A stretch of 64,000 bases of DNA from Chloroflexota bacterium (GTDB lineage Bacteria > Chloroflexota > Dormibacteria > Aeolococcales > Aeolococcaceae): the NCBI GenBank assembly GCA_005880985.1, contig VBIQ01000008.1, positions 64,003-128,002 of the forward strand. The letters are read 5' to 3'. Position 1 is the stretch's first letter. The number at the start of each line of letters is the position of its first letter. Under the pieces are notes generated by a model. The model did no database searches, had not been told where the DNA came from, and worked only from the letters and a program-made list of their open reading frames with translations. Positions 36,924-64,000 of this stretch are shown here, piece by piece. The position numbers and the translations under genes were made by a program.

Positions 36924-39900
36924 CTCTCGGAGCGCCGCCCTGAGGAGCGGCCGGCCCGGCCCGGTGGCCTGGCTGCGGCACGCTGTCGGTAGCCGGCGAC
37001 CAGCTCGAGCAGCGCCGCTCCCCGCGGGCGCCGTCCCGGCCGGATGTCACAGGTCGCCGCCTTGCACTCCTGGATGTGGACGTTGGGGTCGAGCGCCAGC
37101 GGGAGAAGATCGTTGCCCGCATCCCCGGTGCTCAGCCCGCAGACGCCCCAGTGATAGGGCACGCCGACGGTGTGCACCTCGCGCCCCTGGACGCGCACGC
37201 TGGGGATGCGCTCGGTCACCAGCACCCGTGCCTCGATCGCGGTGCGAGTGGTGATGATCGTCGCCCAGCCGCCGTGCTCCAGGGCGCGCTCGGCGGCCAG
37301 TTGCGGGCTCACCTCGCAGAAGAGCTCGGGCTGCAGCTCGGCCAGGTACTCGACCGAACGGCTCATGCCCCCTGCGGTGTGATGCTCGGTGAGGCGGTAG
37401 GTGGTGAGCAGATAGGGGAAGAGACCGTCGTCGTCGAAGGCGTCCGGGGCGTTGTTGTAGGCGTTGAGCGGGTGCCGGAACTGCTGGCGCACGGGATTGC
37501 TCTGCTGGCGGTACAGCGGGTTGCGGAAGACCGACTCCTGCGGCTCGTAGTGGGTGGGGAACGGTCCGTCGCGCAGGCCCTCGGGGACGTACAGCCAGGC
37601 CTTGCCATCTGCCTGCATGATGAACGGCTCGGTGCCGCGCAACGCCTCCTCCGCGGCCGCCTGCTTGCCGGGCTCGTGGTCGGGCGGCATCGTGCGCTTG
37701 AAGTCGGGGGTGTCGATCCCGGTCCACTGGCGCCTGGCGCGGTCCCACCAGACGTAGCGTTTGCGCTCCGACCACGGCTCGCCGCGAGGATCCGCCGAGG
37801 CGCGGTTATAGAGGATGCGCCGGTTGTCGGGCCAGGCCCATCCCCACTCGGCGCCGACGTAGCTCTGCTCGCGGTGCGGCGTGCGGCGCGCCGTCTGGTT
37901 GACACCGTCCCGGTAGCAACCGCTGTAGATCCAGCACCCGCACGCGGTGCTGCCGTCCGCCTTCAGCTCGGTGAACGACGAGAGCTGCTTGCCGTCCGGG
38001 CCCCAACCGCTGATCTCCCGCAACACCGCGTCCGCGCTGGGCTCGGCACGCCTGCCCTCGACCGGATAGTCCCAGGTGAGCTCGAGGACGGGGCGGTTCT
38101 TGGGATCGTCCGGAGCGCGGTCACGCAGCTTCATGCGGATGATCCGGCCGAGGTGGAAATAGAACCACAGGTCGCTGCGACAGTCGCCCCGGGGTTGCAC
38201 CGCGGTGTGGTGCCACTGCAGCAGTCGCTGGGTGTTGGTGAACGAGCCGTCCTTCTCGGTGTGCGACGCCGCCGGCAGGAAGAACACCTCGGTGGGAATG
38301 TCGTCGGTGCGCAGCTCGCCGGTCTCGATCTCCGACGATCGGTACCAGAAGGCGGCGCTCTCGATCTCGACCAGGTCGCGCACCACCAGCCAGTCGAGCC
38401 TGGCCATCGCCATCCGGTTGAGCTTGCCGTTGGCCGAGCCCACCGCCGGGTTCTCCCCGGGCAGGAAGTAGCCCCTGACCCCGCCCTCCAGCATTCCCAT
38501 GGTGAAGACATAGGCGGAGTGGTCGCCGTCGATCCGAGGCAGGTGGCCGAAGGCCCAGTCGTTGTCAGCGGTCGCGTGCTCACCCCACCACGCCTTCATC
38601 AAACTGATGAAGTACTCCTCCATGTGGCCCCAGAAGCCGGTCGGTGCCGAGTTCTTGCGCACGTAGTCCTGATGGCCGAGATACCGCTCGCTGTGCGGCA
38701 TGGGGAGATATCCCGGCAGCAGGTTGTAGAGGGTGGGGATGTCGGTCGAGCCCTGGATGCTGGCGTGGCCGCGCAGCGCCAGGATGCCGCCGCCGGGCCG
38801 GCCGATGTTGCCCAGCAGCTGCTGGACGATCGCCGCGGTGCGGATGTACTGCACCCCGACGGTGTGCTGGGTCCAGCCGACCGCGTAGCAGAAGGCGGAA
38901 GTGCGCTCCCGTCCGCTGTTGGCGCAGAGCGCCTCGGCCACCCGCAGGAAGAGCTGCCGGGGGATGCCGCATGTCTCCTCGACGAGCTCGGGCGTGTAGC
39001 GCCGGTAATGCTTCTTGAGCAGCTGGAAGACACAGCGCGGATGCTGCAGGCTGCGGTCCTGGGGCGGCTCACCGTGCTCGATCGGACGGCCGGCGCCGCC
39101 GGTCTGCTCGCCGTGCGGCACGCCGGGTGGCGCCTCCATCCCGTCGTACAGCCACGACCGCACGTCGTACGCGGCCTTCTTCGCATCGAAGCCGGAGAAG
39201 ACGCCGTCGAGGTCCTCGGTGTCGCGGAAGTCCGCCTTGATGATCGTCGCCGCATTGGTGTACTCGACCACGTAGTCGCGGAAGTACCGCTCGTTCTCGA
39301 GGATGTGGTTGACGATGCCGCCGAGGAAGGCAATGTCCGAGCCGGGGCGGATGGGAACGAAGATGTCGGCGAGGGCGCTGGTGCGAGTGAATCGAGGATC
39401 GACATGGATGATGGTCGCGCCCCGTTCCTTGGCCTCCATCACCCACTGGAATCCGACCGGATGGCACTCCGCCATGTTGGATCCCTGGATGACGATGCAG
39501 TCAGCGTTCTGCAGGTCCTGCTGGAAGGTGGTGGCGCCTCCCCGACCGAAGCTCGTCCCCAGACCGGGGACCGTGGAGCTGTGTCATATCCGCGCCTGGT
39601 TCTCGACCTGGACCACGCCGAGGGCCGTCATCAGCTTCTTGATGAGGTAGTTCTCCTCGTTGTCCAGAGTCGCGCCGCCCAGCGAGGCGATGCCGAGGGT
39701 CCGGTTGCGGGGTCGCTCCTCGTCCCCGTCTCCCTCGGTGCTCTGCCAGGTGGCGTCGCGAGTGGTGATGACCCGCTCGGCGATCATGTCCATCGCCGCA
39801 TCCAGCGACAGTTCCTCCCACTCGGTGCCGAAAGGTCGCCGGTACTTGACCCGGTACTCGCGGCGCGGCGCGGTGACCAGGTTCTTGGTCGCCGCACCCT

Positions 39901-40201
39901 TGGGACATAGCCGGCCGCGCGAGATCGGGCTGTCGGGGTCACCCTCGATCTGGACGATGCGCTCGTCCTTGACGAAGACGCGCTGCCCGCAGCCGACCGC
40001 GCAGTAGGGACAGATGGAGCCGACCACCCGGTCGGCGGTGGCGGTGCGCGGTCGCAGGCGTTCGGTCGCCGGCGAGCGGACCGAGTCGCCACGGCCGAGG
40101 AGGTCACCGCGGGTGAGTTGTCGCACCAGCGGCCAGCGGGCGAGCATGCCCCCGAGACCCATCGGGGGCTGACGGTAGGGGAGTGGACCGCTCGGCGGCA
40201 A
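36920..40201 (-). CDS. fdhA: Formate dehydrogenase alpha subunit, molybdopterin-dependent, selenocysteine-containing (in-frame TGA at 39584-39586); N-terminal start uncertain (TTG 40201, ATG 40162 or 40147)
   Basis: The two track ORFs (39584-40201 and 36920-39475) are in the same frame, separated only by TGA. The flanking sequence ENQARI-U-HSSTVPGLGTSFGRGGATTF closely matches the E. coli FdnG/FdhF Sec region (NQARV-U-HGPTVASLAPTFGRGAMTNHW). N-terminal CPYCAVGCG...C [4Fe-4S] motif. Confidence 0.85.
39540..39583 (-). promoter_or_regulatory. Candidate bacterial SECIS hairpin directly 3' of the Sec UGA
   Basis: On the coding strand, 11 nt after UGA: GUCCCC-GGUCU-GGGGAC stem-loop whose GGUCU apical loop resembles the E. 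coli fdhF SECIS loop; structure judged by eye only. Confidence 0.5.
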
Positions 40202-47537: not shown

Positions 47538-49340
47538 ATGGGTGTGTCCGTCGATCTCGAGGGGGGCGGCGGCCGCCTGCCCGCGCCCGGCGGCGCCGCG
47601 GTTCGGACGGCGCTGCGCGAGCTCTCCGCCAGCCGGTACCCGGAGCGTCCCGAGGCGGTTGCCGGTCGCGAGCGCAGCGCCTCTCCCCTGGCCTTCGCCC
47701 TGATGCTTGCCGCCGCGGTCAGCGCGTCGGTCGTCCTCGGCCGCCCCCATCTCTCCGCCGAGGTCTGGCCGCGGCTGGTGCCGGATGCGGTCGCCGTGAT
47801 GGTGGCCACCGTTCTGCTGATGCCGCGAACCGTGCAGCTGCGGGTTCGATTCTGGCTCTGCGGCATCACCGGCACGATCGCCGCCACCGTCGGTGTCTAC
47901 CTGGCCGTGGTGCCGCTGCGCGGCTCGGGCAACGTGACCTCCGATGTGGTGGTGCTCGGCGTCGCCACCGGTATGATCGCCATCCTGCTGACCAAGTGGC
48001 TCGTCGAGGAGCTGCGCTTCCGGGTTGCCCAGCTGGCGACGCTGGCGGGAACCGACCAGCTGACCGGACTGGCCAACCGGCGGGCCTGGGACGACGAGCT
48101 GCAGCGCGAGCTGCTGCGCGCCCGGCGTGACACCTCTCCACTGTGCATCGCCGTCCTCGACCTCGACCACTTCAAGGCGTTCAACGACATGCGCGGACAC
48201 CCGGAGGGCGACCGCCTGCTCGCCGCCACCGCCGCCGCCTGGCTGGAGGTGCTGCGAGGCGGCGACTTCCTGGCCCGCTACGGGGGCGAGGAGTTCGCCG
48301 CGGTCTTCCGGCGCTGCACCCTCGACGACGCGCTGATCGCCGTCGAGCGCCTGCGGATGGCGGTGCCCGACGAGCAGACCTGCTCGGTGGGCCTCGCCCG
48401 ATGGGATGGTGAGGAGACCGCTGACCAGCTGGTGGCCCGCGCCGACGAAGCGCTGTACATGGCGAAGGTCGGCGGCCGCAACCGCGTCAAGTGTGCGGAG
48501 TGGGTCACCGAGACCGGCGGCCGTCTCGGGGTCACCAACTGGGCTGCCCTCGTGCCCAAGATCATCGCGGACGAGGGACTCGTCTCCGCCTACCAGCCGA
48601 TCGTCGACCTCGGCAGCGGCACCGTGGTGGCCCACGAGGCATTGGCGCGGCCCGGCGTGGAGTACGACGGCAGTGTCGAGGGACTCTTCACCGCCGCCCA
48701 CAAGATGGGCATGGGCTGCGACCTCGACTGGCTCTGCCGGCGCGCTGCGCTGGTGGGCTCGGAGTGGATCCCGCAGGGCGTGCCCCTGTTCATCAACGTC
48801 AACGTCTCGACGCTGCTCGACACCAACCTGCGGGTCGACCACATGCTGCTGCTGCTGGAGGGCTACAGCGGCCGGAGCCCGGAGGAGGTGGTGCTGGAGA
48901 TCACCGAGCGCGAGGTGTTCAGCGACCTGGTGCGGTTGCGCCTGGTGGTCGGGCTGTACCGGCAGCGCGGTTTCCGCTTCGCCATCGACGACGTCGGTGA
49001 GGGCCACTCGACCCTCGAGGTGCTTGCCGCGGTCACCCCCGAATACATCAAGATCGCCCGTCCCATGGTTGTCGACGCGCTCAGCGTCGGACCGCGGGCC
49101 GCGGTCGCGGCGGTGGTCGCCTTCGCTCAGGCGAGCGGTTCGACCGTCATCGCCGAGGGAATCGAGTCGGAGCTGACCGCCAGCTTCATGCGGCGCATGG
49201 GCGTCCATCTGGGCCAGGGATTCCACTTCGGCCGTCCGCTGGTACCGGCCGGCACGGCGCTGAACCTGTCGGTGCCGCTGCTGCGTCCGCCCAGCGGCGG
49301 AAGCACAGGCCTGCTAGCCGGCGGCGCCCAGGTGGCCTGA
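47538..49340 (+). CDS. Membrane-anchored GGDEF-EAL protein (c-di-GMP synthesis/hydrolysis)
   Basis: Five N-terminal TM helices; GGDEF active site (RYGGEEF) with Asp/His motifs; EAL domain (VAHEALARP...DDVGEGHSTL). Confidence 0.9.
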   Translation: MGVSVDLEGGGGRLPAPGGAAVRTALRELSASRYPERPEAVAGRERSASPLAFALMLAAAVSASVVLGRPHLSAEVWPRLVPDAVAVMVATVLLMPRTVQLRVRFWLCGITGTIAATVGVYLAVVPLRGSGNVTSDVVVLGVATGMIAILLTKWLVEELRFRVAQLATLAGTDQLTGLANRRAWDDELQRELLRARRDTSPLCIAVLDLDHFKAFNDMRGHPEGDRLLAATAAAWLEVLRGGDFLARYGGEEFAAVFRRCTLDDALIAVERLRMAVPDEQTCSVGLARWDGEETADQLVARADEALYMAKVGGRNRVKCAEWVTETGGRLGVTNWAALVPKIIADEGLVSAYQPIVDLGSGTVVAHEALARPGVEYDGSVEGLFTAAHKMGMGCDLDWLCRRAALVGSEWIPQGVPLFINVNVSTLLDTNLRVDHMLLLLEGYSGRSPEEVVLEITEREVFSDLVRLRLVVGLYRQRGFRFAIDDVGEGHSTLEVLAAVTPEYIKIARPMVVDALSVGPRAAVAAVVAFAQASGSTVIAEGIESELTASFMRRMGVHLGQGFHFGRPLVPAGTALNLSVPLLRPPSGGSTGLLAGGAQVA

Positions 49341-51890: not shown

Positions 51891-54713
51891 TCAATGGCCC
51901 CGGCGTTCGAGACGGACCTGGCCGGAACGCCGGGCCACGGACGCTGCCAGCTGCACCCGCGAGCTGACGCCGAGCTTGGTGAAGACGTGGGAGAGGTGGG
52001 TCTCCACGGTGCGGCGGGAGACGAAGAGGCGCGCTCCGATCTCGGGGTTGGTGAGCCCCTGGGCGGCGAGCCGTACCACCTCGCGCTCGGCGGGGGTCAG
52101 GCTCTCCCAGCCGTGCGCGGCGCGGGCATGGCGGCCGCGCGGCCCCGGATGGGCGCCCAGCTCTCGCAGCATCGCCGCCGCCTCCGCCTCGTCGCGACGT
52201 GCCCCGATGCGTCCGAAGATCGACCGCGCCTCCTCGGCCATGGCGACGGCTTCGTCGCGCCGGTCCCTGGCCGCGAGCACCGTGGCGGCGTCGCGACAGG
52301 TGGCCGCCAGGTCCACCCGGCGCGGGGTGCTCAGGTACGCGTCCACCGCGCGTTGCATCAGTGACGGGTCGCGCTCGGCCAGGCCGCGGCAGCGCAGCGC
52401 CGCCGCCCGGGCGCTCGGGATCATGGCGCGGGCCGCCGTGCGGTCGACGGCGGTCAGCACCCGCCCGACCAGGGCCCGGTCCGCGGTCGACCCCGAGAGC
52501 CGGATCAGCGGCGGCCCCAGCATCAGCTGGACCGAGAGGGCCTCCAGCGCCGTGGCGCACAACCACCCCCTCTGCACGATCTCCAGGGCCCGGTCGCGCT
52601 CGCCTCGCGCCTCCGCGAGCGCAGCCTGGGCCATCGCCAGCCACTCCCACCCGAATTCACGGGGCTCGTCGGTGCCGAAGGCGCGCTCGGCGTGGCGGAG
52701 GTGGGCGGTGGCGCCGTCGAGCTCGTCGCGGTGGACGGCGATCAGTGCGAGCCGGGCGAGGATGTGGGGCACCGACCAGCGCGTTTCCACCTGCTCAGCG
52801 ACGAGCAGGCCGGCCTCGAGCTCGGCGACGGCATCGTCCCACGCCCCCACGAGGAAGTCGGCGTGGGCCTGGACCGGGTCGTGGAGGGCGAGATGCCAGC
52901 TTCGCTCGCCCTGGTTTGCGGTTCGACGGCTCGCCGCCAGCGCCTGGCGGGCCTCGTCGATGCGGCCCGCCTCCGCCAGCAGCCATCCGTGCCAGACGTG
53001 CGGGGTGCGGCCGAGCGTCTCGTCCCCGCCCGCCTGGGCGAGGGCCACGGCCCGGGCGGAGAGCTCGACCGCCTTGGCCGTGTAGCCGCGGCCGGCGGCG
53101 GTGATCGACAGCGCCAGCAGGCCGGTGGACACCGCCCGGGCGTCGCGGACCCCCGCCCCGATGAGCACCGCCGTCTCGGCGGCGCGAGAGGCGCCGGGCA
53201 GATCGCAGCCCAGGGCAAGCACCAGAGCGGCCTGGGCCAGCAGCTGGGCCCGTCGCGGCTCCGGGGTCTCGTCGCGCGCCGCGATCAGCGAGAACTGCTC
53301 TGCCGCCTCCTGCCAGCGCCCCAGGAAGGCCAGGGCGCGGGCCAGCACCAGCCGGGCCCTTTCCTCGGGGCCGCCCGGTGCCGCTCCCTCCAGCAGGGCG
53401 CGCGCCGCCAGCTCGCCCTCGCGGGGCCTGCCCGCCCAGACCAGGACGTCGGCCTCGTCGAGCCGCAGCGCCCGCTGGTCGCGGTAGCCGGTGCCGGCCA
53501 GCCGTGAGGCGCTGGCGATCAGCTCGCGGGCGGCCGCGGGTGCCTGGGCCGACGCCTCAAGTGCCGCCTGGCGCAGCCAGCCGACGGTCTCCTCGTCACC
53601 CGGCTCGGCTCCCAAGGCCAGCTGGGTCGCAACCCGCCAGGCCGGGGCGTGGCGGGCAGCCAGGGCACGCCCCGCTTGGAGGTGGAGGGCGGTGCGCAAC
53701 GGGGGTGGCTGCTCCAGGTAGACGAGCTCGCGGACCACCGGGTGCCGGAAGGCATAGCGTTCGCCCTTCTCGACGATCAGGCCGAGACGGGCCGCCTCCT
53801 CGAGCGCCGGGGCCAGCTCGACGGCAGGCGTGGCGAGCACCGCCGCCAGGTCATCGACGGGGAAGCTCGAACCCAGCAGCGAGGCCGCCTTGAGAACCGC
53901 GAGATGCTGGCGATCGAGGGTTCGCAGCCGCCGGCGCATCAGCCCGCGAAGGCGTCGAGGCAGCGTGGGCCTGCCCATCAGCTCGGCAACCCCGTCGGCG
54001 ACCTCGACGGCACCGTCGTCGCGCAGGCCGTTGACCAGCTCGGTGACCAGCAGCGGGTCGCCGCCGGCGCCCAAAACCTGTTCCAGCAGGCGAGGACCCG
54101 GCTCGGTGCCGACCATCACCCGCACCAGGTCCACCACCGCGGCCGCGTCGAGTGGCGCCAGCTCGATGATCGTCGCCCCCGCGCTGCCGGCGGCGGCCGC
54201 GAACGCGGCCAGCTCCGGGGACGGCGCCGAGGCTCGGAAGGCAGCGAGGATGAGAAGCCGCCTGGCCTCCGCCCGTCTCCCCAAGCGGTCCAGCGCCAGC
54301 AGGGTGCCGGGGTCGGCCCGGTCGAGGTCGTCGAGGGCGATGGCCACCGCGGCGCGACCCGCCAGGCGGTCGACGTGAGCGATCAGGCCGTTGATGAGCC
54401 GGGCGCGCCCGGCCTCCGACCCCGGGGACCGATCGGCGAGCCCGGCGAGGGTCGGGTCGCCGGCTGCGTCCGCGACGCCCAGGGCGTCGAGCAGCGCCCC
54501 ACAGGGGCGGCCCGCCTCGGCCACGCCGGCGCCGGCGGAGAAGACCTGGCAGCCGCATCGCCTGGCCTCGGCGACGCCCTCCTCGAGCAGGCGGGTCTTG
54601 CCCACGCCGGGCTCTCCCTCGATGAGCACCATCTGGCCGCGCCCGGTGCCGGCGTCGGCGACCGCGCCGCGGAGAATGGCCATCTCGCGGTCACGGCCCA
54701 GCAAGGCCTGCAT
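51891..54713 (-). CDS. Large ATP-binding LuxR-family transcriptional regulator (AAA+/STAND-like NTPase, TPR-like middle region, C-terminal LuxR HTH)
   Basis: Walker A (IEGEPGVGKTRLLEE); long helical repeat region; C-terminal LuxR HTH (LTPAEREVVRLAAQGLTNPEIGARLFVSRRTVETHLSHVFTKLGV). Confidence 0.9.
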   Translation of the reverse strand: MQALLGRDREMAILRGAVADAGTGRGQMVLIEGEPGVGKTRLLEEGVAEARRCGCQVFSAGAGVAEAGRPCGALLDALGVADAAGDPTLAGLADRSPGSEAGRARLINGLIAHVDRLAGRAAVAIALDDLDRADPGTLLALDRLGRRAEARRLLILAAFRASAPSPELAAFAAAAGSAGATIIELAPLDAAAVVDLVRVMVGTEPGPRLLEQVLGAGGDPLLVTELVNGLRDDGAVEVADGVAELMGRPTLPRRLRGLMRRRLRTLDRQHLAVLKAASLLGSSFPVDDLAAVLATPAVELAPALEEAARLGLIVEKGERYAFRHPVVRELVYLEQPPPLRTALHLQAGRALAARHAPAWRVATQLALGAEPGDEETVGWLRQAALEASAQAPAAARELIASASRLAGTGYRDQRALRLDEADVLVWAGRPREGELAARALLEGAAPGGPEERARLVLARALAFLGRWQEAAEQFSLIAARDETPEPRRAQLLAQAALVLALGCDLPGASRAAETAVLIGAGVRDARAVSTGLLALSITAAGRGYTAKAVELSARAVALAQAGGDETLGRTPHVWHGWLLAEAGRIDEARQALAASRRTANQGERSWHLALHDPVQAHADFLVGAWDDAVAELEAGLLVAEQVETRWSVPHILARLALIAVHRDELDGATAHLRHAERAFGTDEPREFGWEWLAMAQAALAEARGERDRALEIVQRGWLCATALEALSVQLMLGPPLIRLSGSTADRALVGRVLTAVDRTAARAMIPSARAAALRCRGLAERDPSLMQRAVDAYLSTPRRVDLAATCRDAATVLAARDRRDEAVAMAEEARSIFGRIGARRDEAEAAAMLRELGAHPGPRGRHARAAHGWESLTPAEREVVRLAAQGLTNPEIGARLFVSRRTVETHLSHVFTKLGVSSRVQLAASVARRSGQVRLERRGH

Positions 54714-54950
54714 GCGAACCCCTTCCGTGGCGGTCCAAGCGATCCCGTCGAGCCGCCTGGGATCCGCCCAGCATATCCGGTAGGTCCCTGATGTCTGAAA
54801 CGGTGAGAAGCGCGACCATCAACGTCGAGCGACGCACCGAGGCGGGGTGGCACTCGAGGCGGGGCAGCCAGGCCCCCGGGCGGGGGGGGAATCGACGCCC
54901 CGGGAGGGGTCTGTTCGCCCGCCTATGTCGACGGCGGGCGATGTGGCAGA

Positions 54951-55271
54951 ATGGTGGTCTTCCCCGTCCCCCATTCCGCGGTCTCATTCATGGATCTCGA
55001 GACGGGCGCCGCCCTCGAGGGCGAAGAGCCCCGCGATGCCACCGCTCGCGATGTCGAGTACTGGCTCAGCATCTATGACGGCCTGCTCTCCTTCACCGAG
55101 GAGATGCTGCAGCGCACGCGCGACTTCATGCGAGAAGCGCCGATGCCGGCTCGCCGGCACCTCGAGACGACCAACGTTCGGATCATGGAGGAGGAGCTGG
55201 CCCAGTTCCGGGCGCGCCTCGACTACTGGCGGCAGCAGCGCGACGAGGCTCGGGGCCAGGCTCAATCCTGA
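54951..55271 (+). CDS. Small hypothetical protein A (about 93-106 aa), paralogous to the convergent neighbour
   Basis: Strong GC3 bias; shares motifs with 55286-55603 (EYWLSIY / EHWVSSY and FRARLDYWRQQ / YRARLEYWKNK). Confidence 0.5.
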   Translation: MVVFPVPHSAVSFMDLETGAALEGEEPRDATARDVEYWLSIYDGLLSFTEEMLQRTRDFMREAPMPARRHLETTNVRIMEEELAQFRARLDYWRQQRDEARGQAQS

Positions 55272-55285
55272 CGACCCGACGACGG

Positions 55286-55603
55286 TCAGCGATGGCCGCC
55301 GGCGGGTGGCTCCCTGACCTTGTTCTTCCAGTACTCGAGGCGCGCGCGATAGCGGAGCAACTGGTTGCGCAGCAGCCGCTCGTCCGCAGACATCGCTCGC
55401 CCGCCGGCGGCCGGCATCACCTTCAGCGCCCTTCCCGACCCGAGCAGGACCTCGTTCTTGTAGGCGATGCGGTCGCGATAGCTGGAGACCCAGTGCTCGG
55501 CTTGGGATGCGCCCGCGATGACAAACGCATCGCTGCTCCTGCCAGCCGGTGGGCGCCGCGACGTGGAGTCGTCGCCGCCCATGACGTACGGTCGTCGAAC
55601 CAC
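55286..55603 (-). CDS. Small hypothetical protein B (about 98-105 aa), paralog of protein A
   Basis: Strong GC3 bias on the reverse strand; conserved blocks shared with protein A; convergent with it (14-bp gap). Confidence 0.5.
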   Translation of the reverse strand: MVRRPYVMGGDDSTSRRPPAGRSSDAFVIAGASQAEHWVSSYRDRIAYKNEVLLGSGRALKVMPAAGGRAMSADERLLRNQLLRYRARLEYWKNKVREPPAGGHR

Positions 55604-55722
55604 GCTTCCGTTCCCTCGCAGCCGCAGCCGGCGCTACTCGAACCGGCAAGCACTCCCCCGTCCTTCGATCATACCCTCATGCCGCCGCGAGATACGAGAG
55701 AACCGCGGGGTTCATCGCTCCG

Positions 55723-56496
55723 GTGACCAACCATGCTCGTGCCGGCTGCGCGACCGCGCTGGTGCTCGCGACCGGCATCGTCGCCGGCTGCGGCGGTTCG
55801 GCGGGCGCGCTGTCAGCGCCACCAGCACAACCGCCGTCGGCCTCGCCCTCCGGGCCGGCTCCGTCGGGCGTCCCCGCGACCGCTGAACCATCAAGCGCGT
55901 CGTTCACCGTCGCCGTCCGTCCCTTTCACGAGCCGGGCGATTTCGCCCACCGCAACTACTGCGGATCGGGCGCCACCGAGGTGCTGCTGTCGGCGTGGAT
56001 CGCCGAGCTCCCCGACCTCGAGACCGTGGCCCGGCGCGCCCACCTGGATCCGCGGAGCGGCCAGACCGGCGCCGACACCACCGCCGGCATCAACTCGTTC
56101 ATCGACCCGCTTGTCACCCCCGCCCTCGGACGCAGCTGGTACCGGCCCGACCATGTCACCGGCATCGCCGCGCTGGAGGCACGGCTGCGCGCCGACCTCG
56201 GCAGCACCCAGGCGCGGCGCCTCTTCGGCCATGCCGTGCCGGTGATGGTGCAGACCATGACCAAGACCATGCCCGGCTGGCGCGGCTGGCAGGCGACCCA
56301 CATGATCACCGTCTCGGCCGCCGACCTCGGTCCCGGCGACCCTGGCCTGGACACCGTGACCTACGCCGAGACGCCGTCGGCGCTGGCGGGGTACCGGGGC
56401 CCCGACTTCCAGACGATGACGGTGGCGGCCCTCTGGCAGGCGATGCACGCCTTCCTGGCCGACGACCCCTCAGATCCGGTCAACGTCATCTGGTGA
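55723..56496 (+). CDS. Lipoprotein of unknown function
   Basis: Signal peptide plus lipobox ([11 protein letters not shown]), Pro/Ser-rich linker, about 190-aa globular domain with no recognised motifs; immediately upstream of the hybrid kinase. Confidence 0.6.
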
Positions 56497-56548
56497 CGTT
56501 ACCGACGAGTTGGTGGAGTTTGGCTTCTGAGGTAGTACATTCCCCCCG

Positions 56549-59500
56549 TTGACCGTCCGGCGGCCGCTGGGGGGAGCGCCGCCGACACTGGGCGCCGCCC
56601 ACGAGGGGACCATGCCGACTGCTACGTCGCCGCCAGACACCTTGGACGCCCGGGTACTCCTGGGCGTCCTCACCAAGCTCAAGAAGGGCGACTTCACCGC
56701 CCGCATGCCGGAGGACTGGACCGGCATCGCGGGCAAGGTCGCCGACACCCTCAACGAAGTCATCGAGACCAACCAGCGCCTCGGCCGAGAGCTCGATCGG
56801 GTGGGGCGGACGGTCGGCAAGCAGGGCAAGACCTCGCAGCGGCTCAACCTCGGTGAGGTGGGCGGCGGATGGGCCACCGCCGTCGACACGGTCAACGAGC
56901 TGATCGAGGACCTGGTCCGGCCCACCAGCGACATGGCCCGGGTCATCGGCGCGGTCGCCAACGGCGACCTCAGCCAGACCATCCCACTCGAGGTCGACGG
57001 GCGGCCGCTCGAGGGACAGTTCCTGCGCACCGCGAAGACGGTCAACACCATGGTGTCGCAGCTGGACTCCTTCGCGGCCGAGGTCACCCGGGTGGCGGGC
57101 GAGGTGGGCACCGAGGGGAAGCTGGGTGGCCAGGCGCGCGTCCGCGGCGTCGGCGGCGTCTGGAAGGACCTGACCGACAACGTCAACTCGATGGCCGGCA
57201 ACCTCACCGCCCAGGTGCGCAACATCGCCGAGGTCACCACCGCGGTGGCGCGAGGCGATCTCTCCAAGAAGATCACCGTCGACGTGCGCGGTGAGATCCT
57301 CGAGCTGAAGAACACCATCAACGTGATGGTCGACCAGCTCAACGGCTTCGCCTCGGAGGTCACCCGCGTGGCCCGCGAGGTCGGCAGCGAAGGCAAGCTC
57401 GGCGGCCAGGCCAAGGTCGAGGGCGTGGGCGGCGTCTGGAAGGACCTGACCGACAACGTCAACATGATGGCCGGCAACCTGACCGGACAGGTGCGCAACA
57501 TCGCCGAGGTCACCACCGCGGTGGCCAACGGCGACCTCTCCAAGAAGATCACCGTCGACGTGCGTGGTGAGATCCTCGAGCTGAAGAACACCGTCAACGT
57601 CATGGTCGACCAGCTCAACGCCTTCGCCTCCGAGGTCACCCGCGTCGCCCGCGAGGTCGGCAGCGAGGGCAAGCTGGGCGGCCAGGCGGACGTCCGTGGC
57701 GTTGCCGGCGTCTGGAAGGACCTGACCGACAACGTCAACATGATGGCCGGCAACCTGACCGGCCAGGTGCGCAACATCGCCGAGGTCACCACCGCGGTGG
57801 CCAACGGCGACCTCTCCAAGAAGATCACCGTCGACGTGCGTGGTGAGATCCTCGAGCTCAAGGACACCATCAACGTGATGGTCGACCAGCTCAACGACTT
57901 CGCCTCCGAGGTCACCCGCGTGGCCCGCGAGGTCGGCAGCGAGGGCAAGCTGGGCGGACAGGCGGAGGTGCGCGGCGTCGGCGGCGTCTGGAAGGACCTC
58001 ACCGACAACGTCAACTTCATGGCGTCCAACCTCACCGGCCAGGTGCGCAACATCGCCGATGTGACCACCGCGGTGGCCAACGGCGACCTGTCCAAGAAGA
58101 TCACCGTCGACGTGCGCGGCGAGATCCTCGAGCTGAAGAACACCATCAACACCATGCTCGACCAGCTCAACGCCTTCGCCTCCGAGGTCACCCGCGTCGC
58201 CCGCGAGGTCGGCAGCGAGGGCAAGCTGGGCGGACAGGCGGAAGTCCGCGGCGTCGGCGGCGTCTGGAAGGACCTCACCGACAACGTCAACTTCATGGCG
58301 TCCAACCTCACCGGCCAGGTGCGCAACATCGCCGAGGTCACCACCGCGGTGGCCAACGGCGACCTCTCCAAGAAGATCACCGTCGACGTGCGTGGCGAGA
58401 TCCTCGAGCTCAAGGACACCATCAACGTGATGGTCGACCAGCTCAACGACTTCGCCTCGGAGGTCACCCGCGTGGCCCGCGAGGTCGGCAGCGAGGGCAA
58501 CCTGGGCGGACAGGCGGAGGTCCGCGGCGTCGGCGGCGTCTGGAAGGACCTCACCGACAACGTCAACTTCATGGCGTCCAACCTCACCGGCCAGGTGCGC
58601 AACATCGCCGACGTGACCACCGCGGTGGCCAACGGCGACCTCTCCAAGAAGATCACCGTCGACGTGCGCGGTGAGATCCTCGAGCTCAAGAACACCATCA
58701 ACGTGATGGTCGATCAACTCAACGCCTTCGCCTCCGAGGTCACCCGCGTCGCCCGCGAGGTCGGCACCGACGGCAAGCTGGGCGGCCAGGCCCAGGTGCG
58801 CGGCGTCGGCGGCGTCTGGAAGGACCTGACCGACAACGTCAACTTCATGGCATCGAACCTGACGGGCCAGGTGCGCAACATCGCCGAGGTGACCACCGCG
58901 GTGGCCAACGGCGACCTGTCCAAGAAGATCACCGTCGATGTGCGCGGTGAGCTGCTGGAGCTCAAGAACACCATCAACGTGATGGTCGATCAGCTCAACA
59001 ACTTCGCCTCGGAGGTGACCCGCGTCGCCCGCGAGGTCGGCAGCGACGGCAAGCTGGGCGGCCAGGCCCAGGTGCGCGGCGTGGCCGGCGTCTGGAAGGA
59101 CCTGACCGACAACGTCAACATGATGGCCGGCAACCTCACCGACCAGGTGCGAGGCATCGCCCGGGTCGTGACCGCGGTGGCCGACGGCGATCTGAAGCGC
59201 AAGCTCATCGTCGAGGCCAAGGGCGAGGTCGCCGCGCTCGCCGACACCATCAACAACATGACCGACACCCTGGCCACCTTCGCCGATCAGGTGACCACGG
59301 TGGCCCGCGAGGTCGGTGTTGAAGGCAAGCTGGGCGGTCAGGCGAACGTGCCCGGCGCCGCCGGCACCTGGCGCGACCTCACCGACAACGTCAACCAGCT
59401 GGCGGCCAATCTCACCACCCAGGTGCGGGCGATCGCCGACGTCGCCATCGCCGTCACCGAAGGCGACCTCACCCGGTCGATCGCGGTCGTGGCGAGCGGC

Positions 59501-62320
59501 GAGGTCGCCGTCCTCAAGGACAACGTCAACGCGATGATCCGCAACCTGCGTGAAACCACGCAGCGCAACACCGAGCAGGACTGGTTGAAGACCAACCTGG
59601 CTCGCTTCACCCGCATGCTCCAGGGCCAGCGCGACCTGCTGACGGTTTCGCGCCTCATCCTCTCCGAGCTGGCCCCCCTGGTCGGCGCCCAGCACGGCGT
59701 CTTCTACACCATCGACGGCCAGAACGGGAGCGCGAGTCTTCGCTTCATGGCCGGCTACGGGTACAAGGAGCGCAAGCACCTCGCCAACGAGTTCAGACTG
59801 GGCGAGGGCCTGATCGGCCAGTGTGCGCTCGAGAAGGAGCGCATCCTGCTCACCAACGTCCCCGACGACTACATCAGAATCAGTTCCGGGCTCGGCGAGG
59901 CCAAGCCCCTCAACATCGTCACCCTTCCCGTCGTCTTCGAGGGTTCGGTGCGTGCGGTGGTGGAGCTGGCCTCGTTCGAGCGTTTCAGCGTGGCCCATCT
60001 CGACTTCCTCGACCAGCTGACCGAGAGCATCGGCATCGTCATCAATACCATCGAGGCGACGATGCGCACCGAGTCGCTGCTCGAGCAGTCGCAGCGGCTC
60101 GCCCAGGAGCTGCAGAGCCAGCAGGACGAGCTGCAGCAGACCAATGACGAGCTCGCCGAGAAGGCGCGGCTGCTGGCGGAGCAGAACGCCGAGGTCGAGC
60201 GCAAGAACGCCGAGGTCGAGGCCGCCAAGCTTTCACTGGAGGAGAAGGCCGCCCAGCTGGCGCTCACCTCCAAGTACAAGTCCGAGTTCCTGGCCAACAT
60301 GTCGCACGAGCTACGGACGCCGCTGAACAGCCTGCTCATCCTGGCCGAGCAACTCGCCCAGAACCCGCAGGAGAACCTGTCGCCCGAGCAGGTGGAGTAC
60401 GCGACCATCATCCGCTCGTCGGGCAACGACCTGCTCAACCTGATCAATGACATCCTCGACCTGTCCAAGATCGAGTCGGGCACGGTGGCGCTCGACGTCA
60501 CCCGGGAACGCTTCACCGACCTGCGTGACTTCTGCGAGCGCGCCTTCCGTCATGTCGCCGAGGCTCAGGCACTCGACTTCGCCGTCGAGGTCGATGCGCG
60601 GCTACCCGAGGCCATCCTCACCGATCCCAAGCGCTTGCAGCAGATCCTCCGCAACCTGCTCTCCAACGCCTTCAAGTTCACCGAGAAGGGATCGGTGAAG
60701 ACACGCTTCCGCCTGGCGGACGGTGGCTGGAGCCCCGACGAGACCGTGCTCACCCGAGCGGGGCAGGTGGTGGCGGTCGACGTGGTCGACACCGGCATCG
60801 GCATTCCCAAGGATCGCCAGCGCCACATCTTCGAGGCGTTCCAGCAGGCGGATGGCACCACCAGCCGCCGCTATGGCGGCACCGGACTAGGACTGTCCAT
60901 CAGCCGCGAGCTGGCGCGGTTGCTCGAGGGCGAGATCATCGTCGACAGCGAACCGGGCCGGGGAAGCACCTTCACGGTCTATCTCCCCATCAGCCGGATG
61001 GTGTCGATCACCGGTCCCGTCCCCCACACCATCGAGAGCACCGTGCCGGCGCCGGTGGTCGAGGCTCTCACCGACGGTGACGGCGCCGCCGCGACCCGTC
61101 CGGGAATCGTGGCGATACGCGATGACCGCTACGCGATCGAACCGGGCGATCGGGTGGTGCTGATCGTCGAGGACGACGCCAACTTCGCCCGGGTGCTAGC
61201 CGACCTCGCTCACGAACGCGGTTTGCGAGCGGTGGTGGCGACTCACGGAGGTGAGGCGCTCCAGCTCGCCAAGGAGTTCGGCGCCGACGCCATCACCCTG
61301 GACCTGCTGCTCCAGGACGTCAGCGGCTGGACGGTGCTCGACCAGCTCCAGCACGATCCCGTCACCAAGCACATTCCCGTCCACATCGTCAGCGTCCAGG
61401 ACGAGGGCGACCGGGGGGTGGTCGAGGGCGCCTCGACGGTGCTCACCAAGCCCGCCCACCGCGACGAGCTGCAGGCTCTCTTCGCCCGCATCGAGGAGGC
61501 CATCGAGAAGCGCGTCAAGCACCTGCTTGTGATCGAGGACGATTCCGTGCAGCGGCAGACCATCGTCGACCTGCTGTACAACGGCCACACCACCGTCCGT
61601 GGTGCCGGCAGCGGTGAGAACGCCTTGCAGGCGATGCGCGAGCAGCACTTCGACTGCGTGGTCCTCGATCTCGGTCTTCCCGACACCAACGGCTTCGACC
61701 TGCTCGAGAAGATGAAGGGGGAGCCGAGCCTGCGCAGTGTGCCGGTGGTCGTCTACACGGCGGGCGATCTCGCTCGCAAGGACGAGACGCGCCTGCGCCG
61801 CCTGGCCCGCAGCATCGTGCTGAAGGAGGTCCGATCTCCGGAGCGGCTGCTCGAGGAGGTGAACCGGCTGCTGCAGCGGGTCGCGGTCCCGGTTCCGGTG
61901 GGAGCCGACGGCGGCGAGCCTGAGGAGGCGGGCACCGATGCCAAGCTGGCCGGCAGGAAGGTGCTCATCGTCGATGACGACGTGCGCAACATCTTTGCCC
62001 TCACCGCTGCCCTGGAGCGTCACGGGCTCGAGGTGGTGGCGGCGGAGAGTGGGCGCGATGCCGTCGAGCTGATCCGCTCGGACCGGACCATCGACATCGC
62101 CCTGATCGACGTGATGATGCCGGAATTCGACGGCTACGAGACGATGCGCGCCGTGCGAGAGGTCACGGACCTCAAGGACTTCCCGATGCTGGCGGTCACC
62201 GCCAAGGCGATGAAGGGTGACCGTGACAAGTGCCTGGAGGCCGGTGCCAACGACTACATCCCCAAACCAGTCGACACCAGCACCCTGCTCTCGATGCTGC
62301 GGGTATGGCTGCGTCGCTGA
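56549..62320 (+). CDS. Cytoplasmic poly-HAMP hybrid sensor histidine kinase: about 20 HAMP domains, GAF, coiled coil, HisKA, HATPase_c, three receiver domains (start TTG 56549 or ATG 56612)
   Basis: No TM segment; nine tandem 92-aa di-HAMP units (...[92 protein letters not shown]...); GAF at about aa 1010-1170; H-box [12 protein letters not shown]; G-box [14 protein letters not shown]; three REC domains with intact Asp/Thr/Lys. Confidence 0.9.
57080..59563 (+). repeat. Tandem 276-bp coding repeats (7 near-identical plus 2 degenerate) encoding the di-HAMP units
   Basis: Unit boundaries 57080, 57356, 57632, 57908, 58184, 58460, 58736, 59012, 59288; roughly 90% or more nucleotide identity between the first seven units, judged by eye. 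Confidence 0.85.
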
Positions 62321-63174
62321 CCGCGGGGGCCGCGAGCGCGGCGCCGCCGCAGACGGCGGAGACGCTCCTCGAGCTGGAGACCGACCTGCTCTTCGAGGGC
62401 ATCCGCCGGCGCTACGGCTACGACTTTGGCGCCTACTCCCGCGAGTCGTTGCAGCGGCGGTTGCAGGCGAGGATGAAGGCGGAAGGAGTGCTCACCCTCT
62501 CGGCGCTGCAAGAGGCGGTGCTCCACGACAGCGCCTGCATGCACCGCCTGCTGCGCGCCATCTCGGTGCCCGCGACGGCGCTCTTCCGCGATCCCGGGCT
62601 CTTCGCGAGCATCCGGGAGGACGTGATCCCGCTGCTGCGGACGTGGCCCTGGTTGCGTATCTGGCATGCCGGCTGCGCCAGCGGCGAGGAGCCCTACTCG
62701 ATGGCCATCCTGCTGGCCGAGGAAGGGCTGCTGGCGCGGACATCGATCTATGCCACCGATGTCAATGACGAGCTGCTGACCCGGGCAGCGTCGGGCAGGC
62801 TGACGGCGAGCAAGCTGGCCGCTTCGCGGCAGGCGCATCACGACGCCGGCGGCGCGCGCCCGCTCGACGAGCACCTGATCGTCGACGGCACCGGCGCACG
62901 ACTGAGACCGGAATTGCTGGAGCGCATCACCTGGGCCCAGCACGACCTGGTGAGCGACACCGGCTTCAACGATTTCCACCTGATCATCTGCGCCAACGTG
63001 CTGATCTACTTCACCCCGCCCTTCCGCGAGCGGATCCACCGGCTGCTCTATGAGAGCCTGGTGCCGTTCGGGTTTCTCGGCCTCGGTGAGCGCGAGTTGA
63101 TCGCCGCGCACCCGCCGACACCGCGGTACCGCCCGGTGCCGCAGGCCAACCGGCTGTACAAGAAGGTGGCCTGA
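62305..63174 (+). CDS. cheR: CheR-type protein-glutamate O-methyltransferase
   Basis: CheR N-terminal all-alpha domain and SAM-binding motifs ([35 protein letters not shown]); overlaps the kinase 3' end by 16 nt. Confidence 0.85.
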
Positions 63175-64000
63175 TGCCTCGCGACGCCCGCGCCAGCATC
63201 CTGGTGGTGGACGACAATCCCAACAAGCTGTTTGCCCTGGAGACGGTGCTGGCCCCGCTCGGCCAGCGGGTGGTGCGTGCCTCGTCAGGGCGCGAAGCGC
63301 TGCGTCGCCTGCTCCACGAGGACTACGCCGTCGTCCTGCTCGACGTGCGGATGACGGAGATGGATGGTTTCGAGACCGCCGAGCTGATCCGCCAGCGGCA
63401 GCGTTCGGAGCGCACCCCGATCATCTTCGTCACCGCCTTCGCCCAGGCGGAGGCCGATATGGCTCGTGGCTACTCGCTGGGCGCGGTGGACTTCGTCTTC
63501 TCTCCGATCGTGCCCGAGGTGCTCCGCAACAAGGTCTCGGTCTTCGTCGACCTGCACAAGAAGTCCGAGGAGGTCAGGCGGCAGAGCGATCGTCTGCGAC
63601 GCCTCGAGGAGCTGGAGCATCAGCGCCGCCTGGAGCGGGCGGAGAGCGGTCGCCGCCAGGCGGAAGCCCGCTTCGCCACCATGCTGGACATCGCCGGTGA
63701 CGCCATCATCGCGGTCGAGGACGACTGGCGGATCGTCCTCTTCAACAAGGCGGCAGAGCGCACCTTCGGGCAGAGTGCGGAGGCCACCATCGGCCATCGG
63801 CTCGACGAGCTGATCGTGCACGGCTTGGAGGGGATGCTGCCGGTCGGGGTCGAGCATCCCGTCAACGGCGTCCGTCACGAGGTGCGGGGCCGGCGGCCCG
63901 ACGGGAGCGAATTCCCCGCCGAGGTCAGCGTGGCACGCACCGACGCCGGCGACAGGGCCGTGTTCACCGTGATCCTGCGCGACATCACCGAGCGTCGCGA
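63174..64000 (+). CDS. Response-regulator receiver plus coiled coil plus PAS domain protein; the 3' end lies outside the window
   Basis: REC (ILVVDDNP...[15 protein letters not shown]...VTAF...), coiled coil, PAS ([30 protein letters not shown]); ATG overlaps the cheR stop (TGATG); not in the ORF track because no stop occurs within the window. Confidence 0.8.

What the first reader, a model, noticed from the sequence alone, without database searches (positions are those of the whole stretch)
54951..55603. Convergent pair of paralogous small proteins wedged between a STAND-like LuxR regulator and the poly-HAMP kinase locus
Two about 100-aa ORFs on opposite strands end 14 bp apart and share conserved blocks (D/AEY/HWxSxY, and ELAQFRARLDYWRQQ versus QLLRYRARLEYWKNK), so they are paralogs. 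Each is divergently paired with a regulatory locus: A with the AAA+/LuxR gene (about 240 bp apart), B with the lipoprotein-kinase-CheR operon (about 120 bp apart). I cannot place them in any family I know. The arrangement suggests partner or antagonist factors for the adjacent regulators.
Basis: seen in the sequence. Interest (0 to 1): 0.6.

Follow-up and report, generated by a model that had tools for sequence, protein, structure and literature searches.

The report
Paired helical-hairpin proteins, undescribed family
Two small convergent genes encode diverged copies of an undescribed two-helix "hairpin" domain, found almost only in the soil phylum Dormibacterota, that usually comes in unlike pairs and replaces the receiver domain in some OmpR-type regulators; it is probably a protein-pairing module of regulatory circuits, but its function is untested.

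Summary
Two coding ORFs, A (most likely 54990-55271, +, 93 aa) and B (55286-55582, -, 98 aa), end 14 bp apart and are significant paralogs (BLASTP E=3e-10).

Neither matches Pfam, NCBIfam, PADLOC, PHROGs or any PDB sequence. They do belong to a real family: 432 cluster representatives at E<=1e-3, and 46 genome loci that are almost all Candidatus Dormibacterota. AlphaFold models A as a two-helix hairpin (pLDDT 89).

A and B belong to two different subtypes. Unlike subtypes recur as neighbours in tandem, divergent and convergent arrangements, and are fused into one chain at an orthologous position. The same domain sits where the receiver domain would be in about 190-aa OmpR-type winged-helix proteins. 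Standalone members are often translationally coupled to histidine kinases that have no response regulator nearby, or lie downstream of a MerR/HspR-like gene.

Best reading (confidence about 0.5): A and B pair with each other as a small cytoplasmic regulatory module.

The heterodimer is inferred: a model of the natural fusion did not resolve how the two hairpins pack. Interest is moderate.

The parts
54990..55271 (+). Gene A, 93 aa. The longest ORF starts at 54951 and gives 106 aa. It is the 'EEP / A-type' member of the hairpin family. Predicted helices are at residues 19-48 and 54-92.
   Evidence: ORF. GC3 is 0.85. Family HMM E=1.1e-31. It scores 69 bits against the upstream-type HMM and 48 against the downstream-type HMM. 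AF2 pLDDT is 89.2. The start at M14 follows from the homolog starts and the divergence pattern upstream.
55286..55582 (-). Gene B, 98 aa. The longest ORF starts at GTG 55603 and gives 105 aa. It is a diverged 'main / GEDP-type' member that keeps the invariant W..xY and R...W but lacks the N-terminal LLxGEDP motif.
   Evidence: ORF. GC3 is 0.84. Family HMM E=4.4e-16. It scores 37 bits against the downstream-type HMM and 23 against the upstream-type HMM. NCBI calls the 98-aa form, P0007. The word-indexed search of 5.8 billion proteins found only two clusters, so B belongs to a lineage-specific, fast-evolving branch.
55272..55285 (.). The 14-bp spacer between the two convergent stop codons.
   Evidence: Read directly from the sequence. 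No terminator-like site was found in 54600-55800.
55209..55348 (.). Inverted repeat with arms at 55209-55229 and 55328-55348 (21 nt, 90% complementary). The arms are the RARL(D/E)YW codons of A and B on opposite strands. RNA spanning both 3' ends folds into a long stem-loop.
   Evidence: the repeat finder pair I2. RNA fold of 55200-55355 gives -82.7 kcal/mol, z=-2.77, with 1 of 200 shuffles folding at least as well. Any function as a bidirectional 3' structure is only a possibility.
54714..54989 (.). Divergent intergenic region between the AAA_16/LuxR gene and gene A. It presumably holds both promoters.
   Evidence: No sigma-70 consensus site was found. The region is about 90% conserved with L002. 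Direct repeat D1 at 54828-54898 is a weak match (73%).
55583..55722 (.). Divergent intergenic region between gene B and the lipoprotein gene.
   Evidence: Read from the sequence. Highly conserved with L002.
51891..54713 (-). Context only: a 940-aa AAA_16 + GerE(LuxR) regulator, divergent from A.
   Evidence: Pfam: AAA_16 6e-18, GerE 9e-18.
55723..63174 (+). Context only: putative lipoprotein (55723-56496), poly-HAMP/GAF hybrid histidine kinase with 3 REC domains (56549-62320), and CheR (62230-63174). This block is divergent from B.
   Evidence: Pfam.

Best explanation
A and B are two expressed-type genes for unlike members (one 'EEP/A-type', one 'GEDP/main-type') of an undescribed family of ~80-residue two-helix hairpin domains. 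The family is centred on Candidatus Dormibacterota.

The hairpin is most likely a protein-protein pairing module. A and B would bind each other, hairpin against hairpin, probably as an antiparallel four-helix bundle. The resulting small cytoplasmic complex would act as an accessory or adaptor in signal transduction and transcription control. It could do this by docking onto a histidine kinase, or onto a regulator that carries the same hairpin domain in place of a receiver. These targets need not be the genes that flank A and B.

Shown: both are real coding genes; they are paralogs; they belong to the family; the hairpin fold is predicted; unlike-subtype pairs and fusions recur; the domain occupies the receiver position of OmpR-type wHTH proteins; kinase and MerR genes are enriched as immediate neighbours.

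Inferred: physical A:B binding, the bundle geometry, a regulatory role, and the identity of the targets.
For: (1) Real paralogous genes. BLASTP E=3e-10, GC3 0.85/0.84, and conservation in L002 and L049.

(2) A real family. A profile search gives 432 representatives at E<=1e-3 and 32 at <=1e-10. The word-indexed profile search finds 543 proteins. The 46 genome loci are nearly all Dormibacterota MAGs, several with 2 loci each. W25, Y29, R76 and W80 are invariant or nearly so.

(3) Fold. AF2 on a 97-sequence alignment gives pLDDT 89.2 and pTM 0.77, with helices at 19-48 and 54-92.

(4) Unlike-subtype pairing. A fits the 'upstream' subtype and B the 'downstream' subtype. A-type plus main-type genes occur in several arrangements:
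- in tandem in 9 loci of one synteny group (a tenth same-strand pair, L016, is a main-type gene followed by a hairpin-wHTH gene) and in L052;
- divergent in L050;
- convergent here;
- fused into one 206-aa chain (P0157) at the orthologous MerR -> pair -> His_Phos_1 position.
Other double-domain proteins are P0014 and P0020.

(5) Hairpin-wHTH regulators. Each has a divergently transcribed standalone hairpin gene of a third subtype, and/or a second hairpin-wHTH gene in tandem (L004, L057-L060).

(6) Domain architecture. Hairpin + Trans_reg_C in P0043, P0051, P0054 and P0135, and PAS + hairpin + Trans_reg_C in P0103, none with a REC domain.

(7) Neighbours. Of 96 immediately adjacent gene slots, 13 are MerR and 11 are histidine kinases, against 7 and 13 of 757 other genes in the same loci. 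The hairpin gene's stop overlaps the start of a PAS-HisKA-HATPase kinase in 7 loci, and no REC gene lies within 6 genes of these. In L018, a REC gene's stop overlaps a hairpin gene's start.

(8) Residue pattern. Helix 1 carries hydrophobic doublets, more than a lone hairpin needs.
Against: - No direct test of A:B binding was possible.
- The AF2 model of the natural fusion P0157 shows two hairpins but has pTM of only 0.54. Its best PDB matches have TMq <=0.36, so a compact four-helix bundle is not demonstrated. The first half of that alignment had no depth.
- Most main-type members are solitary (33 of 46 genome loci).
- Two A-type lineages show no partner nearby (L001, L053/L054).
- A and B are convergent, so they are not co-transcribed.
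- B is very diverged and lacks the conserved N-terminal motif.
- dN/dS against L002 is about 0.4-0.6 on few substitutions, which is weak evidence of constraint.
- About half of the family loci have only metabolic or unknown neighbours.
- The neighbour counts come from a handful of synteny groups, not independent observations.
- The fold is a generic helical hairpin and says nothing about function.
Confidence: 0.5

Rival explanations
1. One reading: A is a dedicated partner or antagonist of the divergent AAA_16/LuxR regulator, and B is a dedicated partner or antagonist of the divergent lipoprotein/poly-HAMP kinase/CheR operon. B might act, for example, as an Sda-like anti-kinase.
For: Each gene shares a divergent promoter region with its regulator, and these regions are conserved in L002. 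Family members elsewhere are tightly coupled to histidine kinases. Sda is a precedent for a helical hairpin that binds a kinase's DHp domain (PMC10730256).
Against: The arrangement is seen only in the window and in 94-95% identical contigs (L002, L049). No other family locus has a homolog of the LuxR-AAA gene or the lipoprotein beside a family member. The kinases coupled to family members elsewhere are small soluble PAS or GAF kinases, not poly-HAMP hybrids. The feature that recurs across lineages is A-type with main-type.
Confidence: 0.15
2. A and B act independently, each as a homo-oligomer or monomer. Their adjacency is just the trace of a local duplication and inversion, with no heteromer.
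For: Most family members are solitary. Single-hairpin wHTH proteins presumably self-associate. The genes are convergent with separate promoters. The P0157 model did not give a confident inter-hairpin packing.
Against: A and B are only 27% identical and fall into two old subtypes that are also adjacent or fused in unrelated synteny contexts and orientations. A recent local duplication would give two copies of the same subtype.
Confidence: 0.22
3. The pair is a WXG100/Esx-like pair of secreted substrates: two ~100-aa hairpins forming a heterodimeric four-helix bundle exported by a type VII-like system.
For: The size, the helix-turn-helix hairpin, the paralogous gene pairs and the weak Foldseek similarity to B. 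anthracis EsxB (TMq 0.61, E about 5) all resemble Esx pairs (PMC3191040).
Against: No WXG100 Pfam hit appears even at E<=10. There is no W-x-G in either hairpin loop (A: REAPMPARR; B: KVMPAAGGR). The same domain is fused to cytoplasmic PAS and wHTH DNA-binding domains. No FtsK/EccC-type gene was seen among the neighbours examined.
Confidence: 0.03
4. One or both ORFs are not functional genes: B could be a decaying paralog, or both could be chance ORFs in GC-rich DNA.
For: The proteins are short, no Shine-Dalgarno or sigma-70 consensus was found, B is rare in databases, and dN/dS is not strongly below 1.
Against: Both have the codon-position GC signature. Family HMM hits are at 1e-31 and 4e-16. 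The ORFs are intact in three contigs. All four invariant residues are retained in both proteins.
Confidence: 0.07

Closest known systems
Sda (B. subtilis anti-kinase) and other small two-component 'connector' proteins
   Same: A small cytoplasmic helical hairpin that works by docking on a larger signalling protein. Sda binds the DHp domain of KinA (PMC10730256). Family members here are translationally coupled to histidine kinases that have no nearby response regulator.
   Different: There is no sequence relationship, since Pfam gives no hit. The proteins are twice the size of Sda (46 aa). They come as unlike paralog pairs and as an N-terminal domain of DNA-binding proteins, which Sda does not. 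Kinase binding is untested.
WXG100 / Esx heterodimers (EsxA-EsxB, EsxG-EsxH)
   Same: About 100-aa helix-turn-helix hairpins, encoded as adjacent paralog pairs, that pack antiparallel into a heterodimeric four-helix bundle (PMC3191040). This is the best structural analogue for the proposed A:B complex.
   Different: No WxG loop motif, no PF06013 match, and no type VII secretion context were found. The domain is fused to PAS and wHTH domains, so it is cytoplasmic.
OmpR/PhoB-family response regulators (REC + Trans_reg_C)
   Same: In ~190-aa relatives the hairpin sits directly N-terminal to a Trans_reg_C winged helix, at the place of the receiver domain. It presumably controls oligomerisation of the DNA-binding domain, as REC does.
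   Different: No REC fold or sequence is present. A and B have no DNA-binding domain at all. hhalign finds no relation to the HisKA DHp domain or to HAMP either (probabilities 0.4% and 0.05%).
Dominant-negative dimerisation-only partners of transcription factors (e.g. eukaryotic Id/HLH 'microProteins')
   Same: Standalone copies of a TF's pairing domain are encoded beside the full TF: a standalone hairpin gene lies divergent from hairpin-wHTH genes in L004, L057, L058 and L060. This comparison rests on my own knowledge of that class.
   Different: The fold and lineage are unrelated. The analogy is purely functional and untested. No hairpin-wHTH gene lies in this 64-kb window.

Membership tests
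The undescribed hairpin family itself (defined here by alignments A2/A3) | Significant match to the family profile over the whole ~80-residue domain | tested here: met
   hmmsearch domain E=1.1e-31 for A and 4.4e-16 for B. Both halves of the profile are covered.
The undescribed hairpin family itself (defined here by alignments A2/A3) | Invariant W..xY in helix 1 and R...W in helix 2 | tested here: met
   A has W25, Y29, R76, W80. B has HWVSSY and RARLEYW.
The undescribed hairpin family itself (defined here by alignments A2/A3) | N-terminal (R)LLxGE(D/E)P motif ahead of helix 1 | tested here: inconclusive
   A has ALEGEEP, the A-type variant, in which E13 and P14 are invariant. B has no recognisable motif (PAGRSSDAF).
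WXG100 / Esx (PF06013) | Pfam WXG100 profile match | tested here: not met
   No Pfam family at E<=10 for A or B.
WXG100 / Esx (PF06013) | W-x-G motif in the inter-helix turn | tested here: not met
   The loops read REAPMPARR (A) and KVMPAAGGR (B), with no WxG.
WXG100 / Esx (PF06013) | Linkage to type VII secretion genes (FtsK/EccC-like ATPase) | not tested
   None was seen among the neighbours that were annotated. The whole window and genome were not screened.
Sda anti-kinase | Sequence family match and ~46-aa size | tested here: not met
   No Pfam or NCBIfam hit. The proteins are 93 and 98 aa.
Sda anti-kinase | Binds the DHp domain of a histidine kinase and inhibits autophosphorylation | not testable with these tools
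   Only genomic coupling to kinases in relatives is available.
HisKA/DHp or Hpt phosphotransfer helices | Profile similarity to DHp and a conserved phospho-accepting His | tested here: not met
   hhalign against 23 DHp regions gives probability 0.4%. The His before the invariant W is not conserved: Y in A, and E, D, R or F in A-type relatives.
HAMP domain | Profile similarity to HAMP units | tested here: not met
   hhalign against the window kinase's own HAMP units gives probability 0.05%. No Pfam HAMP hit.
OmpR/PhoB response regulators | REC receiver domain plus Trans_reg_C | tested here: not met
   A and B have neither domain. Fused relatives have Trans_reg_C only, and NCBIfam response-regulator models match only their C-terminal part.

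The most novel reading that the evidence does not exclude
The hairpin is a receiver-independent partner domain for histidine kinases. It would be a new output and adaptor class that docks on, or is modified by, kinases lacking a response regulator, and that directly drives OmpR-type winged-helix domains in place of REC. Unlike-subtype heterodimers such as A:B would set specificity. The position that is an invariant Asp (D62) in the main type is an invariant Asn in the A type, which would fit an active/pseudo-active pairing.
Probability: 0.1. Interest if true: 0.8.

Novelty: new variant of a known kind. Interest (0 to 1): 0.45.

Why it matters
If the reading is right, a whole uncultured soil phylum (Dormibacterota) uses a private, undescribed pairing domain to wire kinases, MerR-type regulators and OmpR-type DNA-binding domains together. 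This includes regulators that have a DNA-binding domain but no receiver, and kinases that have no response regulator nearby. That would add a family to the short list of small proteins that modulate two-component signalling. It would also give a handle on regulation in organisms that cannot yet be grown.

The practical yield now is more modest. It consists of a definable new domain family (alignments A2/A3, three or more subtypes), a predicted fold, and a clear set of natural fusions and gene pairs that tell experimenters which proteins to co-express.

Tried and rejected
- **Known families.** Pfam, NCBIfam, PADLOC and PHROGs scans of A, B and relatives found nothing for the hairpin. A PDB sequence-profile search found nothing below E=0.9.
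- **DHp or HAMP origin.** Rejected by hhalign, with a working positive control.
- **Heterodimer proxy.** The AF2 model of the natural fusion P0157 was inconclusive (pTM 0.54), partly because MAFFT placed all single-domain sequences on the second half.
- **Recurrence next to LuxR-AAA or poly-HAMP genes.** Not found outside near-identical contigs.
- **Metagenome scan with the A-type alignment.** It returned only one near-identical locus. The first attempt on genome contigs with A2 failed for lack of a conserved stretch.
- **Promoter and terminator consensus scans.** Nothing found.
- **dN/dS against L002.** Too few substitutions to be decisive.
- **Literature search** for Dormibacterota two-component biology. 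Nothing relevant.
- **Ferritin/EncFtn-like metal site.** Considered because of the Foldseek hits. Rejected because no ExxH-type motif is conserved.

Full report
**1. Observation**

Their stop codons are 14 bp apart. BLASTP of one against the other gives 27% identity over 67 residues at E=3e-10, so the paralogy is real.

Both carry the coding signature of this 71% GC sequence. GC at the third codon position is 0.85 and 0.84, with second-position GC at 0.44 and 0.55. The overlapping alternative ORFs do not show this pattern.

A 3.9-kb contig that is 94.6% identical (L002) keeps the order LuxR-AAA, A, B, lipoprotein, kinase. A 1-kb contig (L049) keeps the convergent pair.

The real starts are probably internal:
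- A most likely starts at M14 (54990, 93 aa). Homologs P0003, P0005 and P0006 begin there, and the 39 nt upstream differ from L002 in a non-coding manner.
- B most likely starts at M8 (55582, 98 aa), as NCBI called it.

The neighbours are as described: AAA_16+GerE (51891-54713, -); a lipobox protein without a Pfam hit (55723-56496); a 1923-aa poly-HAMP/GAF/HisKA/HATPase kinase with three REC domains (56549-62320); and CheR (62230-63174).

**2. A family exists, but it is not described**

A and B hit nothing in Pfam or NCBIfam, even at E<=10. They hit nothing in PADLOC or PHROGs.

The word-indexed search found only 6 and 2 close relatives. These show that the window is a 'Chloroflexi bacterium' MAG with locus tags E6J14_07970 and E6J14_07975.

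A full HMMER search with a profile of these sequences changed the picture. It found 432 cluster representatives at E<=1e-3 and 32 at <=1e-10, mostly 90-130 aa. A second word-indexed search with a 72-sequence profile gave 543 proteins. Those with names are 'hypothetical protein' from Candidatus Dormibacteria/Dormibacteraeota MAGs.

A genome scan returned 46 loci. Almost all are Dormibacterota MAGs and several MAGs contribute two loci, so the family is multi-copy per genome.

The consensus of the commonest subtype is DPDRLLxGEDPxSxxxDDAxHWxxVYxELLxFKxxLL...ARxEVxxTDxxVLxAExxRFxRRLxFWxxRxxEL. W25 and Y29 are invariant, and R76 and W80 are nearly so. A profile search of all PDB sequences found nothing better than E=0.9.

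**3. Fold**

AlphaFold2 on a 97-sequence alignment models A as a helical hairpin with helices at 19-48 and 54-92 (mean pLDDT 89.2, pTM 0.77).

Foldseek against the PDB gives only generic hairpins, all with E>1. The fold is credible but uninformative about function.

hhalign finds no relationship to the DHp (HisKA) helices of 23 kinases from the same loci (probability 0.4%). It finds none to the HAMP units of the neighbouring kinase (0.05%). The two subtypes of the family recognise each other at 98%.

**4. Domain architectures**

Besides standalone proteins, the domain occurs in several combinations:
- Directly N-terminal to a Trans_reg_C winged helix in ~180-200-aa proteins (P0043, P0051, P0054, P0135 and many PF00486-tagged hits).
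- Once as PAS + hairpin + Trans_reg_C (P0103).
- Twice in one chain (P0014, P0020, P0157).
- Once after a ThiS/MoaD domain (P0236).

These are documented. In the wHTH proteins the hairpin occupies the position that a receiver domain has in OmpR/PhoB regulators. NCBIfam response-regulator models match only the C-terminal part of these proteins.

**5. Pairs of unlike paralogs are the rule**

Scanning all fetched loci with the family HMM shows only two copies in the 64-kb window. Many other loci have two adjacent copies. In one synteny group the order is MerR-type gene, then hairpin 1, then hairpin 2, then a His_Phos_1 gene on the opposite strand.
- Hairpin 1 is always an 'A-type' (…AEP…W..LY..L.AMMERQLEETRAF…YLSRENIAILEEEIEAF…).
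- Hairpin 2 is always the main type.

Window A scores 69 bits against the A-type model and 48 against the main-type model. Window B scores 37 against the main-type model and 23 against the A-type model. The window pair is therefore the same kind of unlike pair.

The same combination recurs in other forms:
- In tandem in an unrelated context (L052, around P0017).
- Divergent in L050, around P0009, with a shortened partner.
- Convergent here.
- Fused in one 206-aa protein (P0157) at the orthologous MerR -> pair -> His_Phos_1 position.

Hairpin-wHTH regulators have a divergently transcribed standalone hairpin of a third ('ELTNLP') subtype immediately upstream. In L004 and L059 they also have a second hairpin-wHTH gene in tandem.

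Gene adjacency in three orientations, plus a natural fusion, is the classical signature of physically interacting proteins. This is the main basis for proposing that A binds B.

Two features of the conserved columns fit a hairpin that is buried on more than one side and packs antiparallel to a partner:
- Helix 1 carries hydrophobic doublets at 25/26, 28/29, 32/33 and 39/40.
- Helix 2 carries a heptad-spaced charge row, D62-E69-R76-R83.

This interpretation is inference. The best structural analogue is the Esx heterodimer, two hairpins forming an antiparallel four-helix bundle (PMC3191040).

I could not model A:B directly. The AF2 model of the natural fusion shows two hairpins (pLDDT 82), but its pTM is 0.54 and it has no compact-bundle match in the PDB (TMq <=0.36). 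Packing is therefore unresolved, partly because the first half of the alignment had no depth.

**6. Association with regulators**

In the fetched loci, the gene immediately next to a hairpin gene or pair is a MerR-type regulator in 13 of 96 slots and a histidine kinase in 11 of 96. The rates among the other 757 genes of the same loci are 7 and 13. Pfam confirmed the classes.

Specific cases:
- In seven loci the hairpin gene's stop overlaps the start of a ~397-aa PAS-HisKA-HATPase kinase (GTGATG in L003). No REC gene lies within six genes of these kinases.
- Three further loci have a divergent 300-aa kinase, again without a REC gene nearby.
- In L018 a REC gene's stop overlaps the hairpin gene's start.

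These counts come from about five synteny groups and are not independent observations. About half of all family loci have no regulatory neighbour (e.g. L014, L027, L039, L055). The association is real but not universal.

**7. What this means for the window**

It rests on an arrangement found only in the window's own close lineage. No other family locus has those neighbours.

The more general idea, small partner or antagonist factors in regulatory circuits, agrees with the family-wide evidence. My best explanation (confidence about 0.5) is as follows:
- A and B form a hetero-oligomer of two hairpins.
- The complex acts as a small cytoplasmic regulatory adaptor.
- Possible targets are a kinase, as with the helical-hairpin anti-kinase Sda (PMC10730256), or hairpin-bearing transcription factors encoded elsewhere.

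The rivals are:
- dedicated partners of the flanking regulators (0.15);
- independent homo-oligomers whose adjacency is only historical (0.22);
- WXG100-like secreted pairs (0.03), contradicted by the missing WxG motif, the missing Pfam hit, and the fusions to PAS and wHTH domains;
- non-functional ORFs (0.07).

**8. Novelty and score**

The sequence family is undescribed and essentially confined to one uncultured phylum. The fold and the likely mode of action, small helical proteins that pair and modulate signalling proteins, are known kinds. I therefore rate it a new variant of a known kind.

The most novel reading not excluded is a receiver-independent kinase partner and output domain. In that reading, the D62 (main type) versus N62 (A type) difference would mark active and pseudo-active partners. 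I give it a probability of about 0.1.

Interest is 0.45. The finding is a solid, well-delimited new domain family with suggestive genomics, but it has no functional evidence and no surprising mechanism yet.

**9. Side observation at the locus**

The RARL(D/E)YW codons of A and B form a 21-nt, 90% complementary inverted repeat (55209-55229 / 55328-55348). RNA across both 3' ends folds into a long stem-loop (-82.7 kcal/mol, z=-2.8). No canonical terminator is present. This structure could serve both convergent transcripts, but that is only a possibility.

Noticed in passing
window 36920-40201 (-), TGA at 39584-39586: A molybdopterin oxidoreductase is split into two ORFs by a single in-frame TGA. 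The context is ENQARI*HSSTVPGLGTSFGRGGAT, which looks like the selenocysteine site of formate dehydrogenase alpha subunits. This suggests a Sec-decoding FDH rather than a pseudogene. No SECIS or sel-gene search was done.
   Followed up: partly
window 55200-55355: The paralogous RARL(D/E)YW codons on opposite strands create a 21-nt inverted repeat. RNA spanning the two convergent 3' ends folds into a long stem-loop (-82.7 kcal/mol, z=-2.77). It may be a shared 3' structure for both transcripts.
   Followed up: partly
window 47538-49340 (+), 62230-63174 (+), 63174-63998 (+): The pair sits in a signalling-rich stretch. It includes a GGDEF-EAL protein, CheR, and a REC-PAS protein that runs off the window end, in addition to the LuxR-AAA gene and the poly-HAMP kinase.
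   Followed up: no
L003, L007, L008, L010, L011, L013 (about 4100-11450 in L003): The hairpin + orphan-kinase bicistron lies next to two cyanophycin-synthetase-like genes and a cyanophycinase (Peptidase_S51) in six or seven Dormibacterota MAGs. This may hint at what that kinase controls.
   Followed up: no
P0236 (186 aa): A fusion of a ThiS/MoaD ubiquitin-like domain (PF02597) to the hairpin domain. This architecture does not obviously fit a transcription or kinase role.
   Followed up: no
L004 2825-4131; L059 535-1464: Two hairpin-wHTH genes lie in tandem. In L004 there is also a divergent standalone hairpin and a REC-containing gene beside it. This small cluster has three family members of different subtypes.
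   Followed up: partly
L034 and L041 (records titled Candidatus Saccharimonadales and Candidatus Acidiferrales): These two loci share the gene order of a Dormibacterota synteny group (L036, L038, L040, L042). The MAG assignments may therefore reflect mis-binning rather than true occurrence outside the phylum.
   Followed up: no
L050 740-991 (-): The partner of the A-type gene P0009 is an 83-aa main-type hairpin with an internal deletion of the loop region. It may be a decaying or minimal partner.
   Followed up: no
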